Below are positions 1,053-36,042 of a stretch of DNA of 37,268 bases, piece after piece. The position numbers and the translations under genes are program-made. The notes under the pieces are model-generated. The model did no database searches, was not told the origin of the DNA, and saw nothing but the letters and a program-made list of their open reading frames with translations. How positions within the stretch are numbered: position 1 is the first letter of the stretch; every line of letters begins with the position of its first letter. The stretch comes from Escherichia phage PEC14: the sequence record NC_073051.1; one strand, written 5' to 3'.

Positions 1053-1116
1053 CATTGGTTGCCATTTTGAGTGTTTTTAGCCGGTCGCATTGGTTGCCGT
1101 GTAGTGTGAATATAAT
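1053..1116 (+). promoter_or_regulatory. two copies of CATTGGTTGCC (1053-1063, 1088-1098) followed by TATAAT at 1111-1116
   Basis: Motif read directly; belongs to the ATTGGTTGC family recurring in intergenic regions of this window. Confidence 0.35.
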
Positions 1117-1149
1117 GCATAGTTATGCAATAAAACTGCATAAAGTAAG

Positions 1150-1310
1150 CGGGACAAAAAGCGGGACAGACCAGGGGCGGGACAAAGCGGGACAGCACCC
1201 CTGTCCCGCCCCGGATGACGCGGCCTGGCGGGGAGCGGGACAGGCGGGACAAAGCCCAGTCTTTCAGACTAGACGGGGGTCATTGGCCCCCCTCGTCTGA
1301 GACTGAATAA
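1150..1310 (+). repeat. copy 1 of ~160-bp duplicated element: CGGGACA heptamer array (1150-1200), 35-bp divergent core, 75-bp conserved block (1236-1310) with long imperfect palindrome 1257-1305
   Basis: Direct comparison with 17710-17870: 51-bp block identical except one base, 75-bp block identical, spacing preserved. Confidence 0.85.
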
Positions 1311-1459
1311 AATCCGGGATTGCATAATACACGGCAGCACATTGGAAATCGCGGTCGTCGCTGAACTAGGCAACCAATGCGAGATGCAGAACGGGGTGTG
1401 AAAAATGCAGTTTGCAGTCACAGCAGATAGCGATCAACTTTTTCATGCGCATGATTAAT

Positions 1460-1493
1460 ATTGGTTGCATCCATGCCAGCACCCTGCTAGATT
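1460..1493 (+). promoter_or_regulatory. candidate promoter ATTGGTTGCAT-N17-TAGATT upstream of early gene block
   Basis: TTGCAT at 1465-1470, 17-bp spacer, TAGATT at 1488-1493; about 30 bp upstream of ATG 1522. Confidence 0.4.
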
Positions 1494-3097: not shown

Positions 3098-3388
3098 ATG
3101 GATAAGCTAAACGAGTGGTTATTCGCCCTTGCGTGTCTGGCTGGCGGCTTCGTAGGCGCACGCATTCATGGCGAGGCTACGAAAGGGCCGCTAAACTTCG
3201 TTTTGTATGTTGTAGTTGGCTTCCTGTGTGCCATATTTGGCGCACCGGCTATCGCTGAGTGGGCTGGTTTGTCGGGTGAGCGCACTGTCGCCGGTTTAGG
3301 CTTCGTAACCGCGATCTTCTGGATGCCAATCGCCGACCGGATCAGGGAGACTATTGCGTCGTTCCTACTTCCGGGGGGTGCAAAATGA
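3098..3388 (+). CDS. putative holin (96 aa, three hydrophobic segments)
   Basis: Three predicted TM stretches; immediately upstream of lysozyme gene. Confidence 0.5.
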   Translation: MDKLNEWLFALACLAGGFVGARIHGEATKGPLNFVLYVVVGFLCAIFGAPAIAEWAGLSGERTVAGLGFVTAIFWMPIADRIRETIASFLLPGGAK

Positions 3389-3630
3389 TTATCTCCGTCC
3401 TGTTGTTTGTTATCATAGGGGCTTCGTCCCTGTTTAACGTATATGCGCCGTCCGTTCAGGATGGTATCTTAGGCCGGGTGCTGTATCTGTTAACGGCAAT
3501 GATCTGTCTTATCGGATTGTTGCAAACAGGAGACGTATCTGATACCACCTGGACCGCGTTAATCTGGCTGTTTGCATTGCGCACCCTGCGTAATGCTGTT
3601 TTGAATGGGGTAAAACATGCGATTCAGTGA
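3385..3630 (+). CDS. small membrane protein, holin/antiholin-like (81 aa)
   Basis: Two or three hydrophobic segments; overlaps neighbours on both sides within the lysis cassette. Confidence 0.45.
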   Translation: MIISVLLFVIIGASSLFNVYAPSVQDGILGRVLYLLTAMICLIGLLQTGDVSDTTWTALIWLFALRTLRNAVLNGVKHAIQ

Positions 3631-4108
3631 CAACGGTCTACGATTTACGGCAGCCTGGGAGGCTTTCAGCCCGGTGCCGTATTTCGCGACCAAGAAAGAG
3701 CAGGCCCGCGGCCTGTACACCTGGGGTTATGGTCATACCGGCACTAATCCGCCTCGAAGCATTACCCGCGAGGAAGCGCTGGCACTTCTCAAGCGCGATG
3801 TGGCGTATGCCGAGGATTGGGTGAACAAATACGCACATCCGAGCATTAACCAGGCGCAATTCGACGCGCTGGTGGACCTGGTAATCAATGCCGGTCCGGG
3901 GCCGATCGTACCGGATGACGTCGCGAATGATTTCGATGATGCGGTGCGACTGGGAGACTGGGCGAAGGTCCGTGCTACTCTGCCGCAGTTCCGCAAGCAA
4001 GGTGGGGAAGTGCTTAAGGGTCTGGTACGCCGTGCAATCGGCAGACAGGCGTTGTTTGATGGTAAGCAGTGGGACGTTGCCGAGAAAATCGGGCGTAACG
4101 CTGCATAA
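3617..4108 (+). CDS. endolysin, phage lysozyme family
   Basis: Lysozyme-like N-terminal signature GLRFTAAWEAFSPVPY...LYTWGYGHTG; 163 aa; follows the holin-like genes. Confidence 0.75.
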   Translation: MRFSDNGLRFTAAWEAFSPVPYFATKKEQARGLYTWGYGHTGTNPPRSITREEALALLKRDVAYAEDWVNKYAHPSINQAQFDALVDLVINAGPGPIVPDDVANDFDDAVRLGDWAKVRATLPQFRKQGGEVLKGLVRRAIGRQALFDGKQWDVAEKIGRNAA

Positions 4109-4124
4109 TACGAGGTAACACAGT

Positions 4125-4292
4125 ATGTTAAAAAGCATTCTTGATCATAACGCCGACGCGCTCGCCGCGCTGGCTAAAACCGAAGACCCCGGCGCCCGCG
4201 CTATCATCGCGGACACTATCAACCACGCTGGGGTCTTCGATGCGAAGCTGCCAAGCCCACCACCGCAGGATGCATCCGGCCACGCAGCGTAA
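4125..4292 (+). CDS. small hypothetical protein (55 aa), not in ORF track
   Basis: ATG with GAGGT SD 9 nt upstream, translated by eye; followed by a strong terminator. Confidence 0.3.
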   Translation: MLKSILDHNADALAALAKTEDPGARAIIADTINHAGVFDAKLPSPPPQDASGHAA

Positions 4293-4298
4293 ACAATT

Positions 4299-4326
4299 AA
4301 GCCCGGTTAATTCCGGGCTTTTTATT
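4299..4326 (+). terminator. rho-independent terminator
   Basis: aagcccggttaattccgggctt followed by ttttatt. Confidence 0.7.
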
Positions 4327-4387
4327 GCTTGACTCGCAACCAACATAGACGCCATACTGCGACCAATCAACGAGAGGAGTAATCAAG

Positions 4388-4468
4388 ATGGCACGTAAAG
4401 ATATTTGGGTATTAGCGATCTGGACCACCGCGGCTTTTATCGGCATGGTTATTTGCGAATTGATATAG
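4388..4468 (+). CDS. 26-aa hydrophobic peptide (MARKDIWVLAIWTTAAFIGMVICELI) with strong SD
   Basis: GAGGAG 8 nt upstream of ATG; single TM-like span. Confidence 0.3.
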   Translation: MARKDIWVLAIWTTAAFIGMVICELI

Positions 4469-4481
4469 CCCGCCGCCATAC

Positions 4482-4507
4482 GGACCGTGGTATATTGTCC
4501 ACGGTCC
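4482..4507. other. perfect 9-bp inverted repeat GGACCGTGG-N8-CCACGGTCC without T-tract
   Basis: Read directly; loop contains TGGTATATT. Confidence 0.6.
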
Positions 4508-4529: not shown

Positions 4530-5672
4530 ATGCACCCGCAAACTAAAATTACCGATGAGCAATTGATCGCAGAAATTCAGGCAGGGACTACGGTTAAAGA
4601 GATTGCGAAGAAATACGGGATTGCCCTGCGCAATGTCTATATGCGCAAAGCCCGCCTGTCGAAAAAGGGAATTGGTCACGGCAATGATGCCGTGATCCGT
4701 AAGCGCGTTGCCGATGGTTTTGGGGTTAAGCGCGTATCGGCCCTGGTGCGCGGAAATGGCGAAGAGGTCATGTCGTGGGTCATCACTGAGCAGGACAAGG
4801 AGCGCCAACTCGAAGCTATGCGCGCTGTTGTCGAGGGTATGAACAGCGAAATCACACCGGCAGCGCCTGTAAACGCCCCGCCAGTACCGATCCAGGCGCT
4901 CGACTTGCTCAACCTGTACACCGTGTCAGACTTTCACCTGGGAATGCTGGCATGGGGTGAGGAGACTGGCGAAGACTGGGATATGGCGATCGCCGAAGAC
5001 TTGTTCTACCGCTGGTTTGTCGAAGCCTTCGCCCGCGCACCGGACGCAGGCACTGCCGTTATCAATATCCTCGGGGATATGGCCCACTTTGATAGCCTGG
5101 ATGCAGTCACCCCGGCAAGCGGTCACGTACTGGACGCCGACACCCGCTACCAGAAACTGGTCCGATACATGATTCGCATGGTGCGCAACGTCGTAGAACT
5201 TGCGCTGCAAAAACACCACAAAGTCAAACTGCTAATCGTCCAGGGTAATCATGACGAATCCGGTATGATTTGGCTTGCTGAGATGTTCAATACCTTGTAT
5301 GAGAACGAGCCGCGCGTCGATGTGGACACGTCCCCGGACGTCTACAAAATGGTGCAGCACGGTAAGACTACGCTATTTTTCCACCACGGGCACAAAGCGC
5401 GATTCGATGTTATCGAGCAGGTTATGATCGCTAAATTCAGACAGGCGTTCGGGTCGAGCGAATACAGCTACGCGCACGTAGGCCATTTGCACCACCAGAA
5501 GATTGTTGAATCCCGCAACATGATTGTTGAACAGCACCGGACGCTCGCAGCGAAAGACGCCTACGCCAGTCGTGGCGGTTGGATGTCTGGTCGCAGCGCC
5601 AACGTCATTACCTACAGCGCCAACTACGGCGAAGTAGCGCGCTTAACCATTAGCCCAGAAATGTTGAAGTAA
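4530..5672 (+). CDS. HTH domain fused to calcineurin-like metallophosphoesterase
   Basis: N-terminal helix-turn-helix-like segment (TVKEIAKKYGIALRNVYMRKARL); phosphoesterase motifs in order DFH, GDMAHFD, GNHDE, HHGH, GHLHH. Confidence 0.65.
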   Translation: MHPQTKITDEQLIAEIQAGTTVKEIAKKYGIALRNVYMRKARLSKKGIGHGNDAVIRKRVADGFGVKRVSALVRGNGEEVMSWVITEQDKERQLEAMRAVVEGMNSEITPAAPVNAPPVPIQALDLLNLYTVSDFHLGMLAWGEETGEDWDMAIAEDLFYRWFVEAFARAPDAGTAVINILGDMAHFDSLDAVTPASGHVLDADTRYQKLVRYMIRMVRNVVELALQKHHKVKLLIVQGNHDESGMIWLAEMFNTLYENEPRVDVDTSPDVYKMVQHGKTTLFFHHGHKARFDVIEQVMIAKFRQAFGSSEYSYAHVGHLHHQKIVESRNMIVEQHRTLAAKDAYASRGGWMSGRSANVITYSANYGEVARLTISPEMLK

Positions 5673-5692: not shown

Positions 5693-5719
5693 AGCCTGCC
5701 GATTTGGTGGGCTTTTTTG
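5693..5719 (+). terminator. probable terminator (8-bp stem with two G-U pairs + T-run)
   Basis: agcctgcc gattt ggtgggct then ttttttg. Confidence 0.4.
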
Positions 5720-5732
5720 TGCCTGTTATAAT
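5704..5732 (+). promoter_or_regulatory. sigma70-like promoter with extended -10 (TTGGTG-N17-TGT-TATAAT) ahead of terminase genes
   Basis: Hexamers and spacing read directly; overlaps the preceding terminator. Confidence 0.4.
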
Positions 5733-11953: not shown

Positions 11954-11989
11954 GCAACCAATATACTGCAACCAACATTCACAATGCAA
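11954..11989 (-). promoter_or_regulatory. candidate promoter for minus-strand cassette: two ATTGGTTGC-type motifs plus TTGCAT-N18-TATATT
   Basis: Motifs read on minus strand, oriented toward the start at 11924. Confidence 0.4.
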
Positions 11990-17549: not shown

Positions 17550-17552
17550 CGA

Positions 17553-17870
17553 AGCGGGACAGGCGGGACGTCCCGTTTTGTCCCGCCACCATTAAACTGC
17601 ATATATACTCACTACCAGTGCATAAACTAAAAGCGGGACAGGGGTGCTGTCCCGATCTGTCCCGCCCCTTAAAAGTGAATAGCTAAGCGGTTTTTCTGCA
17701 TAAAACAAACGGGACAAAAAACGGGACAGACCAGGGGCGGGACAAAGCGGGACAGCACCCTGTCCCTGCCAGTGCTGCCGCGGGTTTTAGCCGATCGGGA
17801 CAGGCGGGACAAAGCCCAGTCTTTCAGACTAGACGGGGGTCATTGGCCCCCCTCGTCTGAGACTGAATAA
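17553..17870 (+). repeat. copy 2 of duplicated element plus extended CGGGACA heptamer array (direct and inverted copies) between chaperone and tape measure genes
   Basis: About 15 CGGGACA copies; 17710-17760 and 17796-17870 match 1150-1200 and 1236-1310. Confidence 0.85.
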
Positions 17871-31137: not shown

Positions 31138-31167
31138 ACTATAGTGCAACCAATCTATTGGTTGCAA
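31138..31167 (-). promoter_or_regulatory. perfect palindrome TGCAACCAAT-CT-ATTGGTTGCA with TTGCAA-N18-TATAGT
   Basis: Read directly at 31145-31166; overlaps the 3' end of the HAD gene and lies upstream of the gene starting at 31090. Confidence 0.45.
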
Positions 31168-33051: not shown

Positions 33052-33085
33052 AATATAATGCAACCAATATGATTATGCAACCAAT
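33052..33085 (-). promoter_or_regulatory. candidate promoter: two ATTGGTTGCAT copies with TTGCAT-N17-TATATT
   Basis: Read on minus strand at 33060-33068 and 33077-33085; -10 at 33052-33057. Confidence 0.45.
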
Positions 33086-36008: not shown

Positions 36009-36042
36009 ACTATACCGCTACGCGACCAATTCAGCAACCAAT
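36009..36042 (-). promoter_or_regulatory. candidate promoter ATTGGTTGCTG-N17-TATAGT inside 3' end of VRR-NUC gene
   Basis: Motif copies at 36022-36030 and 36034-36042; -10 at 36009-36014. Confidence 0.35.

What the first reader, a model, noticed from the sequence alone, without database searches (positions are those of the whole stretch)
4530..5672. DNA-binding HTH fused to a calcineurin-like phosphoesterase immediately upstream of the terminase genes
All five ordered metallophosphoesterase motifs are present (DFH, GDxxD, GNHD, H, GHLHH) behind an N-terminal helix-turn-helix. Candidate roles are a nuclease acting on host or phage DNA (Mre11/SbcD-like chemistry), a protein phosphatase regulator, or a packaging-associated factor. 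The HTH also makes it a candidate reader of the ATTGGTTGC or CGGGACA motifs.
Basis: partly seen in the sequence, partly recalled or inferred. Interest (0 to 1): 0.45.

Follow-up and report, generated by a model that had tools for sequence, protein, structure and literature searches.

The report
Phage HTH-fused Mre11-like phosphoesterase (T1 gp16 family)
This is a real but already catalogued phage gene, the counterpart of coliphage T1 gp16: a DNA-binding head joined to an Mre11-like metal-dependent phosphodiesterase that is most likely a DNA nuclease, forms its own transcription unit and is not part of the DNA-packaging machinery.

Summary
The ORF at 4530-5672 (+, 380 aa) is real. It is 100% identical to PEC9_9 of Escherichia phage PEC9 (Dhillonvirus), deposited as 'calcineurin-like phosphoesterase superfamily domain protein'.

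- **Family:** it matches PHROG 704 'DNA repair exonuclease' over its full length and is 45% identical to T1 gp16. Homologues occur in 2,060 of 50,697 phage records and in proteobacterial prophages.
- **Structure:** a confident AlphaFold model shows a basic three-helix HTH, a beta-hairpin plus helix, and a metallophosphoesterase core.
- **Motifs:** all metal-ligand motifs are invariant across the family.
- **Structural neighbours:** the closest are DNA nucleases (PolD DP1, Mre11, SbcD). Protein phosphatases score far lower.
- **Not Mre11/SbcD proper:** there is no room for a capping domain, and a closely related, fully annotated genome encodes no Rad50/SbcC.
- **Terminase adjacency is incidental:** a terminator and a separate promoter-like element lie between the genes, and the neighbours differ in other lineages.

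Best reading: a stand-alone HTH-tethered DNA nuclease. Its target may be host DNA, as for T5 A1 and mycobacteriophage Gp48, or phage replication intermediates. No member has been tested. This is an ordinary finding of modest interest.

The parts
4299..4320 (+). Terminator-like hairpin plus T-run that ends the lysis gene cluster and insulates the unit upstream
   Evidence: 8-bp stem, 6 GC pairs, TTTATTGCTT tail. The hairpin plus T-run is present in all six Dhillonviruses compared, with small sequence differences.
4329..4358 (+). Sigma-70-like promoter candidate (TTGACT-18-CATACT) that would drive a 26-codon ORF. It carries one-mismatch copies of the GCAACCAAT motif at 4336-4344 and 4359-4367. 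The cassette is missing in some Dhillonviruses.
   Evidence: Present in PEC9, HK1 and mckay; absent in Zumzum and UAE_MI-01; a variant is present in ZCEC11.
4388..4468 (+). Small ORF, 26 aa, hydrophobic (MARKDIWVLAIWTTAAFIGMVICELI), with a GAGAGGAG ribosome-binding site. It is an optional companion of the unit.
   Evidence: The reading frame is kept in phage mckay with conservative changes. The deposited record instead annotates a minus-strand ORF over the same DNA (PEC9_8).
4482..4507 (+). Perfect 9-bp inverted repeat GGACCGTGG-N8-CCACGGTCC that encloses the extended -10-like element TGGTATATT (4488-4496). This is the putative proximal promoter of the phosphoesterase gene.
   Evidence: The core GTGnTATATTG is invariant in six Dhillonviruses whose flanks diverge or are replaced. 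The inverted repeat itself is not conserved.
4530..5672 (+). CDS of 380 aa: HTH-metallophosphoesterase, PHROG 704, orthologue of T1 gp16
4554..4664 (+). N-terminal three-helix HTH (residues 9-45), basic, of the LuxR/GerE / sigma-70 region 4 type
4719..4847 (+). Beta-hairpin (residues 64-88, with invariant W83) plus helix (90-106), the connector module between HTH and catalytic domain
4905..5669 (+). Metallophosphoesterase catalytic domain (residues 126-380). Motif positions: I 4929-4937, II 5073-5093, III 5244-5255, IV 5382-5393, V 5481-5495.
5693..5719 (+). Terminator-like hairpin plus T-run immediately after the stop codon
   Evidence: The T1 orthologue has an annotated terminator in the same place, and so does phage Motto.
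5724..5732 (+). Extended -10-like element TGTTATAAT ahead of terS. The terminase genes would have their own start signal.
   Evidence: Read directly from the sequence. Inference only, not tested.

Best explanation
The gene encodes a stand-alone, metal-dependent DNA phosphodiesterase (nuclease).

**Shown here**
- The catalytic domain is of the Mre11/SbcD/PolD-DP1 type.
- A basic N-terminal helix-turn-helix is joined to it through a beta-hairpin/helix connector.
- The two-metal site is complete: D134, H136, D183, N240, H286, H319 and H321, plus the catalytic H241 and the Mre11-like H186.
- The gene is bracketed by terminator-like hairpins.
- An extended -10-like element conserved among Dhillonviruses lies just upstream of it.
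- It is the Dhillonvirus orthologue of T1 gp16, which the literature reports as a persistent gene of Drexlerviridae.

**Inferred**
- The HTH holds the enzyme on DNA.
- The enzyme hydrolyses DNA phosphodiester bonds from ends or nicks, without a Rad50/SbcC ATPase.
- The conserved promoter-like element and the flanking hairpins make the gene a monocistronic unit read by the host RNA polymerase.
- The most likely in-vivo target is the host chromosome, giving shut-off and nucleotide salvage. This follows the two phage metallophosphoesterases that have been tested, T5 A1 and mycobacteriophage A10ZJ24 Gp48.

**Confidence**
About 0.55 that it is a nuclease acting on DNA. About 0.25-0.3 that the host chromosome is the target.
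For: **Motifs and fold**
- Motifs are invariant across 45 homologues down to 33% identity.
- The AF2 model has pLDDT 91.4.
- Foldseek top hits are Mre11 and DP1 at about 1e-7.
- The catalytic-domain profile's best PDB hit is T. maritima Mre11. It aligns 'tDfHlGmlaW' with 'SDWHLGVTSW' and 'GDflH' with 'GDLLH' (E=0.07, marginal).

**HTH**
- Supported at family level, and basic with pI 10.35.

**Family**
- Full-length match to PHROG 704 at 3e-161.
- T1 gp16 is 45% identical over 377 aa.

**Transcription unit**
- Terminator-like hairpins lie on both sides.
- The extended -10-like core is invariant in six Dhillonviruses.

**Literature**
- T5 A1, a predicted metallophosphatase resembling DSB-repair and proofreading nucleases, is necessary and sufficient for host DNA degradation (bioRxiv 10.64898/2026.04.02.716235).
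- A10ZJ24 Gp48 degrades DNA in vivo and in vitro, and this needs its motif residues (PMC12287305).
- T1 and TLS degrade host DNA, and the responsible genes are unidentified (PMC11447400).
- In 508 of 522 Drexlerviridae the 'DNA repair exonuclease' is a persistent gene beside the lysis cassette. It is often followed by polynucleotide kinase or dNMP kinase (PMC13164509).
Against: - No biochemical or genetic data exist for any member of this family.
- The sequence-level link to Mre11 is marginal (E=0.07).
- There is no detectable sequence relationship to T5 A1 (hhalign probability 17%, limited to the NHD region; A1 is a separate PHROG). The same holds for the Bxb1 gp47 / Gp48 type (probability 8%). 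The functional analogy therefore rests on the shared superfamily only.
- Homologues sit in integrated prophages inside large bacterial chromosomes such as Dyella, Bordetella, Phenylobacterium and Herbaspirillum. That fits poorly with wholesale host-genome destruction as the family-wide role.
- A sequence-reading type of HTH is not obviously needed by a non-specific DNase.
- T1 also encodes other candidate nucleases: RecE-like, a gp21 whose positional counterparts in related Drexlerviridae are annotated VRR-NUC, and three HNH proteins.
Confidence: 0.55

Rival explanations
1. Same nuclease chemistry, but the target is the phage's own DNA. The enzyme would trim or open ends, hairpins or branched replication/recombination intermediates, an Mre11-like job done without Rad50. 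This would allow concatemers to be replicated, recombined and made ready for packaging.
For: - The gene lies at the end of the replication/recombination module in Drexlerviridae: helicase, VRR-NUC or Holliday-junction resolvase, (Dam), small ORFs, then this gene.
- In a Bordetella prophage it lies 1.4 kb downstream of a Holliday-junction resolvase gene, with two ORFs between, and just upstream of terS-terL-portal. In a Dyella prophage it lies 0.5 kb downstream of a Q-like gene, with one small ORF between.
- It occurs in temperate and virulent phages alike.
- The nearest structures are repair and proofreading nucleases.
Against: - No capping domain and no Rad50/SbcC partner.
- The neighbourhood varies. 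It is often the lysis genes or a tail-module island rather than recombination genes.
- No genetic data.
Confidence: 0.22
2. It is a phosphodiesterase or phosphatase acting on something other than DNA polymers. Candidates are 2',3'-cyclic or 3'-phosphate RNA/DNA ends (end-healing together with polynucleotide kinase) and cyclic or linear nucleotide immune signals (anti-defence).
For: - In some Drexlerviridae a polynucleotide kinase gene directly follows (PMC13164509).
- The gene behaves like an autonomous accessory unit, with its own promoter-like element and terminator-like hairpins and a variable location.
Against: - A conserved basic HTH argues for a nucleic-acid polymer partner.
- The top structural neighbours and motif II (GDxxH) point to Mre11-type nucleases.
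- No match to any PADLOC defence or anti-defence model.
Confidence: 0.1
3. The protein is mainly a transcription regulator. Its HTH would read the over-represented GCAACCAAT (ATTGGTTGC) or CGGGACA sites, and the phosphoesterase domain would be auxiliary.
For: - ATTGGTTGC occurs 12 times against 0.5 expected, and CGGGACA 21 times against 5.5.
- Copies often sit in pairs directly after -10-like hexamers, and one forms a palindrome.
- Two one-mismatch copies lie in the region upstream of the gene.
- The HTH is of the LuxR / sigma-70 region 4 type.
Against: - Every catalytic residue is invariant across the family, so the enzyme function is under selection.
- The partial genome stretches of the Jerseyvirus MA12 (11 kb, 76% identical protein) and of vB_StyS-sam (7 kb) contain no copy.
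- The superficially similar T1 motif ACCAATCAGGAG is a ribosome-binding leader.
- Other DNA-binding proteins are encoded in the genome.
Confidence: 0.06
4. It is a packaging accessory factor that works with the terminase, as HNH endonucleases do in HK97-like phages.
For: - It lies directly upstream of terS/terL in Dhillonviruses.
- It lies within 0.6-3 kb upstream of the terminase genes in three prophages.
Against: - A terminator-like hairpin and a separate promoter-like element separate it from terS.
- In T1 it is about 32 kb from terS/terL.
- Its neighbours in Drexlerviridae, Jerseyvirus, RcLkye and Vibrio phages are not packaging genes.
Confidence: 0.04
5. It is a Ser/Thr protein phosphatase like lambda NinI.
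For: - It belongs to the same superfamily.
- In one prophage it occupies a nin-like position, 0.5 kb downstream of a Q-like gene.
Against: - The PPP signature (GDxHG, GDxVDRG, GNHE) is absent. The family has (S/T)DxHLG, GDxxHxD and GNHD.
Confidence: 0.03

Closest known systems
Coliphage T1 gp16 / PHROG 704 ('DNA repair exonuclease', 'putative phosphoesterase')
   Same: It is a full-length orthologue: 45% identity over 377 aa including the HTH, with a PHROG 704 HMM match at 3e-161. Both genes are followed directly by a terminator.
   Different: The genomic position differs. T1 and other Drexlerviridae place it before holin-endolysin-spanin, while PEC9 places it after the lysis genes and before terS. 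No member has been characterised experimentally, so the family name is only an annotation.
Mre11 / SbcD nuclease subunit of the Mre11-Rad50 (SbcCD) complex
   Different: There is no room for a capping domain or a Rad50-binding C-terminus, because the protein ends with the catalytic core. No Rad50/SbcC gene is annotated in the closely related HK1 genome. It has an N-terminal HTH plus hairpin module instead. Sequence similarity is marginal (E=0.07).
PolD small subunit DP1 (3'-5' proofreading exonuclease)
   Different: No PolD large subunit is present, and identity is only about 15%. Whether DP1's OB-fold and N-terminal domains have counterparts was not examined. The phage's own polymerase is annotated simply as 'DNA polymerase'.
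Phage T5 A1 (pre-early host-DNA degradation protein, PHROG 1745)
   Same: It is a phage-encoded predicted metallophosphatase described as resembling DSB-repair and proofreading nucleases. It works without Rad50 and is paired with an HTH function, the separate A2 protein.
   Different: No detectable sequence homology beyond the NHD..S.WL stretch (hhalign probability 17%). The PHROGs differ. A1 has 555 aa, with the domain in its C-terminal half. In T5 the HTH is a separate protein that is dispensable for DNA degradation.
Cluster A mycobacteriophage metallophosphoesterase (A10ZJ24 Gp48; Bxb1 gp47)
   Same: It is a stand-alone phage metallophosphoesterase with five motifs. Experiments showed phosphodiesterase and DNase activity and damage to the host genome (PMC12287305).
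   Different: The Bxb1 gp47 type has about 255 aa and no HTH or hairpin module. Only motifs IV-V align (hhalign probability 8%).
Lambda NinI / PPP-family Ser/Thr phosphatases
   Same: Same superfamily, and phage-encoded.

Membership tests
Calcineurin-like metallophosphoesterase superfamily | Five ordered motifs that supply the two-metal ligands: DxH, GD, GNH[D/E], H, GHxH | tested here: met
   D134/H136, D183, N240/H241, H286 and H319/H321 are present and invariant or at least 90% conserved in 45 homologues.
Calcineurin-like metallophosphoesterase superfamily | The beta-alpha-beta-alpha-beta sandwich fold | tested here: met
Calcineurin-like metallophosphoesterase superfamily | Score above the Pfam gathering threshold for Metallophos or Metallophos_2 | tested here: inconclusive
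   22.5 vs 27 and 20.3 vs 21.5 bits for the window protein. 12 of 45 members hit PF00149 at E<0.01. This is a divergent family, and the threshold is a curation aid rather than a defining property.
PHROG 704 / T1 gp16 family | Full-length profile match and orthology to T1 gp16 | tested here: met
   E=2.9e-161 over residues 5-380 against profile positions 2-390. BLASTP to T1 gp16 gives 1e-109.
Mre11/SbcD nucleases | Nuclease-domain motifs, including DxHLG and the motif II histidine (GDxxH) | tested here: met
   (aligned to T. maritima Mre11).
Mre11/SbcD nucleases | Capping domain and Rad50-binding region C-terminal to the nuclease domain | tested here: not met
Mre11/SbcD nucleases | A cognate Rad50/SbcC ATPase encoded alongside | tested here: not met
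   No such gene is annotated in the complete Dhillonvirus HK1 genome or in T1.
Mre11/SbcD nucleases | Homodimer through a helical bundle; Mn2+-dependent exo- and endonuclease activity | not testable with these tools
   Needs biochemistry or a multimer model.
PPP Ser/Thr protein phosphatases (lambda NinI type) | Signature GDxHG / GDxVDRG / GNHE | tested here: not met
T5 A1 family (PHROG 1745) | Sequence homology to A1 | tested here: not met
   hhalign probability 16.6% over 20 columns. A1 hits only phrog_1745.
Helix-turn-helix DNA-binding domains (LuxR/GerE / sigma-70 region 4-like) | A tri-helical HTH recognisable by profile and structure | tested here: met
   Three helices modelled with mean pLDDT 92-95 over residues 11-40. 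Family members hit Sigma70_r4_2 at 1.5e-9, GerE at 2.4e-8 and HTH_1 at 4.3e-6. DNA binding itself was not tested.
Terminase-associated accessory nucleases | Conserved linkage or co-transcription with terS/terL across lineages | tested here: not met

The most novel reading that the evidence does not exclude
This family (T1 gp16 / PHROG 704) could be the unidentified host-chromosome-degrading nuclease of T1-like, Dhillon-like and Jersey-like siphophages. It would be a single-chain equivalent of the T5 A1 nuclease with a built-in DNA-binding module. That would explain the old T1 observations of host DNA breakdown and its link to transduction frequency.
Probability: 0.25. Interest if true: 0.55.

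Novelty: new member of a known kind. Interest (0 to 1): 0.3.

Why it matters
The gene is one of the most widespread uncharacterised enzymes of enterobacterial siphophages. It occurs in about 4% of all deposited phage genomes and is reported as a persistent gene in 508 of 522 Drexlerviridae. These phages include many that are used or proposed for therapy.

If it is the host-DNA-degrading nuclease, three things would follow:
- It would close a gap stated explicitly in the T1/TLS literature.
- It would bear on generalised transduction by these headful packagers.
- It would bear on which bacterial sensors of genome degradation they trigger.

As it stands, the finding adds no new kind of system. 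It refines an existing annotation and removes the suggested link to packaging.

Tried and rejected
- **PDB by sequence, single protein:** only spurious repeat-protein hits.
- **NCBIfam and PADLOC:** nothing meaningful.
- **Related-locus searches with the broad alignments A1 and A2:** A narrower alignment (A4) worked.
- **Encoding contigs for two distant representatives:** only contigs of 2.2-3.5 kb with no recognisable context, apart from a MazG-family gene directly upstream in one.
- **Homology to T5 A1, T5 A2 and Bxb1 gp47 by hhalign:** not supported.
- **BFVD fold search:** uncharacterised phage relatives only, with no named T5 A1 among the top 50.
- **Literature on Dhillonvirus, T1-like phages, defence escapers and Metis / PUA-Cal-HAD:** no experimental data on this family.
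- **A shared AACCAAT-like motif in T1 as a common HTH target:** rejected. The T1 motif ACCAATCAGGAG is a ribosome-binding leader.
- **The 9-bp hairpin before the gene as an RNA element:** not supported. The region's fold is not unusual (z = -0.45) and the stem is not conserved. Only the -10-like core within it is conserved.
- **The T1 genome paper:** could not be read. The old genetic mapping of the T1 host-degradation mutants therefore could not be checked against gp16.

Full report
**1. Observation**

The window is 100% identical, over the 1.6 kb compared, to Escherichia phage PEC9 (Dhillonvirus, ON548431.1). Window position equals record position plus 1420. The ORF at 4530..5672 (+) exists exactly as described: ATG start, 380 aa. 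It is deposited as PEC9_9, 'calcineurin-like phosphoesterase superfamily domain protein'.

The translation carries these motifs:
- D134-F-H136
- G182-D183-M-A-H186-F-D188
- G239-N-H-D242
- H285-H-G-H288
- G318-H-L-H-H322

Motif II is GDxxH(xD).

**2. The motifs are not chance**

- A whole-library HMMER search found 4,657 clusters (50% identity) at E<=1e-3, mostly 370-420 aa and matched over nearly their full length.
- In an alignment of 45 members down to 33% identity, the metal-ligand residues are invariant or at least 90% conserved.
- Also invariant are W83 in the connector and T194 in a conserved insert after motif II.
- Pfam Metallophos scores for the window protein fall just below the gathering thresholds. 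This is a divergent family, recognised by PHROG 704 'DNA repair exonuclease' at 3e-161 over its full length.

**3. Structure**

AlphaFold2 with this alignment gives pLDDT 91.4 and pTM 0.79. The model has three parts:
- a three-helix HTH (residues 9-45);
- a long beta-hairpin (64-88) plus a helix (90-106);
- a metallophosphoesterase core (126-380) that runs to the C-terminus.

Residues 1-60 have pI 10.35, while the rest of the protein is acidic. The window protein's HTH hits are weak. Other members hit Sigma70_r4_2 (1.5e-9), GerE (2.4e-8), HTH_1, HTH_28 and HTH_8, and the family profile's best PDB hits for this region are LuxR/FixJ-type domains.

**4. Which kind of phosphoesterase**

Foldseek agrees, with Mre11 and DP1 on top. 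A catalytic-domain-only profile finds T. maritima Mre11 as its best PDB sequence match. The E-value of 0.07 is marginal, but the match aligns DxHLG...W, GDxxH and GHxH. The PPP protein-phosphatase signature is absent.

So the chemistry is most like the DNA-end nucleases. The margin over small-substrate phosphodiesterases is modest.

It is not a true Mre11/SbcD:
- there is no room for a capping or Rad50-binding domain;
- no Rad50/SbcC gene is annotated in a complete Dhillonvirus genome or in T1.

**5. Distribution and context**

tblastn finds the family in 2,060 of 50,697 phage records. These include Dhillonvirus, Jerseyvirus/Kagunavirus, Drexlerviridae, Vibrio phages, a Rhodobacter phage, and partial matches in N4-like roseophages. 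T1 gp16 is a 45%-identical full-length orthologue. An annotated terminator follows its stop codon, and another lies about 800 bp upstream, beyond two small ORFs.

The neighbours differ between lineages:

| Lineage | Context |
|---|---|
| Drexlerviridae | helicase, VRR-NUC or resolvase, (Dam), small ORFs, this gene, terminator, (HNH, PNK or SH3), holin-endolysin-spanin |
| Jerseyvirus | island inside the tail module, between a superinfection-immunity gene and an Ant-like gene |
| RcLkye, pYD21-A, Vibrio 91E33-1 | next to lysis genes |
| Phenylobacterium, Herbaspirillum prophages | directly after endolysin or spanin |
| Bordetella, Dyella, Frateuria prophages | 0.6-3 kb upstream of the terminase genes; an HJ-resolvase gene lies 1.4 kb upstream (Bordetella) and a Q-like gene 0.5 kb upstream (Dyella) |

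The common theme is a position at a module boundary. Linkage to terminase is not the common theme.

**6. Local anatomy in the window**

- A terminator-like hairpin (4299-4320) ends the lysis cluster.
- A promoter-like site (4329-4358) and a 26-codon hydrophobic ORF (4388-4468) follow. This cassette is present in PEC9, HK1 and mckay but missing in Zumzum and UAE_MI-01.
- The core GTGnTATATTG is invariant in all six Dhillonviruses compared. It contains an extended -10-like element (TGGTATATT, 4488-4496) about 34 nt before the ATG.
- The perfect 9-bp inverted repeat around this element in PEC9 is not conserved.
- After the stop codon come a terminator-like hairpin with a T-run (5693-5719) and then TGTTATAAT (5724-5732) ahead of terS.

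The gene therefore looks like an insulated monocistronic unit read by host RNA polymerase. Timing of expression was not determined.

**7. What it probably does**

Two phage metallophosphoesterases without Rad50 partners have now been tied experimentally to destruction of host DNA:
- T5 A1 is necessary and sufficient in vivo (bioRxiv 10.64898/2026.04.02.716235).
- Mycobacteriophage A10ZJ24 Gp48 acts in vivo and in vitro, and this depends on its motif residues (PMC12287305).

T1 and TLS degrade host DNA, and the genes responsible are explicitly unidentified (PMC11447400). This makes the T1 gp16 family a reasonable candidate.

The link is only by analogy:
- hhalign finds no specific relationship to A1 (probability 17%) or to the Bxb1 gp47 / Gp48 type (probability 8%);
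- the family is also carried by integrated prophages.

The same nuclease chemistry acting on phage replication or recombination intermediates is a serious rival. Small-molecule or end-healing phosphodiesterase roles remain possible.

**8. The repeated motifs**

ATTGGTTGC occurs 12 times against 0.5 expected, and CGGGACA 21 times against 5.5. GCAACCAAT copies often sit in pairs right after -10-like hexamers, and one pair is palindromic. They therefore look like operators. Two one-mismatch copies lie upstream of this gene.

Nothing ties them to this HTH. A superficially similar T1 motif turned out to be a ribosome-binding leader.

**9. Verdict**

This is a real, correctly delimited gene of a known, widely annotated but experimentally untouched family. 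The nuclease reading is favoured. The protein-phosphatase and packaging readings are not supported. The motif-reader idea is untested. Interest is modest. It rests mainly on the possibility that this is the missing host-DNA-degrading enzyme of T1-like and related phages.

Noticed in passing
window 1136-1310 and 17696-17870: A 176-bp segment is duplicated at 89% identity. It is packed with direct and inverted GCGGGACA repeats and ends in a GC-rich hairpin. The second copy lies in a gap of about 700 nt without any long ORF, inside the tail gene cluster just before the tape-measure gene (17934). More GCGGGACA arrays lie at 17552-17666. Their function is unknown; they could be regulator-binding arrays or part of an origin.
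   Followed up: partly
window 1054-1468, 2025, 11954-11976, 28066, 31146-31165, 33060-33085, 36022-36042: GCAACCAAT / ATTGGTTGC occurs 12 times against 0.5 expected. Copies are mostly in pairs and often directly follow -10-like hexamers (TATAAT-GCAACCAAT at about 33051; TATAGT-GCAACCAATctATTGGTTGC palindrome at 31146-31165). They look like operators of an unidentified phage regulator.
   Followed up: partly
window 4388-4468 (+) versus 4297-4479 (-): A 26-aa hydrophobic ORF (MARKDIWVLAIWTTAAFIGMVICELI) has a strong ribosome-binding site, and its frame is kept with conservative changes in phage mckay. The deposited PEC9 record instead annotates a 60-aa ORF on the opposite strand (PEC9_8). The whole promoter-plus-small-ORF cassette is absent from some Dhillonviruses, so it behaves as an indel.
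   Followed up: partly
window 5724-5732: A near-consensus extended -10 element (TGTTATAAT) lies right after the terminator-like hairpin and ahead of terS. This suggests the terminase/late operon has its own host-type promoter.
   Followed up: no
family alignment A1, between the HTH and the beta-hairpin (PEC9 residues about 47-88): Most family members share a linker motif, G[YFH]AP[ED]H[DG][ML]xHxVPxG[FY]x[VI]KGxSTLY...QWVKT. It is degenerate in PEC9 and its meaning is unknown.
   Followed up: no
L010 (phage T1), e.g. 1513, 4928, 18853, 31497, 47049: T1 has a recurrent leader, ACCAATCAGGAG, placed 6-10 nt before start codons. It is among the most frequent 9-mers in the genome. PEC9 has a related ACCAATCAACGAGAGGAG leader before its 26-codon ORF.
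   Followed up: partly
L004, L006, L007, L012, L013, L015, L044, L055 and window 3098-4292: In many unrelated lineages the phosphoesterase gene sits immediately next to the lysis cassette, either upstream (Drexlerviridae) or downstream (Dhillonvirus, RcLkye, Vibrio phages, alpha- and betaproteobacterial prophages). This may only reflect a module boundary, but it recurs strikingly often.
   Followed up: partly
L014 4159-4659; L015 4010-4519; L010 42028-42510: HNH homing-endonuclease genes are inserted directly downstream of the phosphoesterase gene in several phages (vB_StyS-sam, Vibrio 91E33-1, T1).
   Followed up: no
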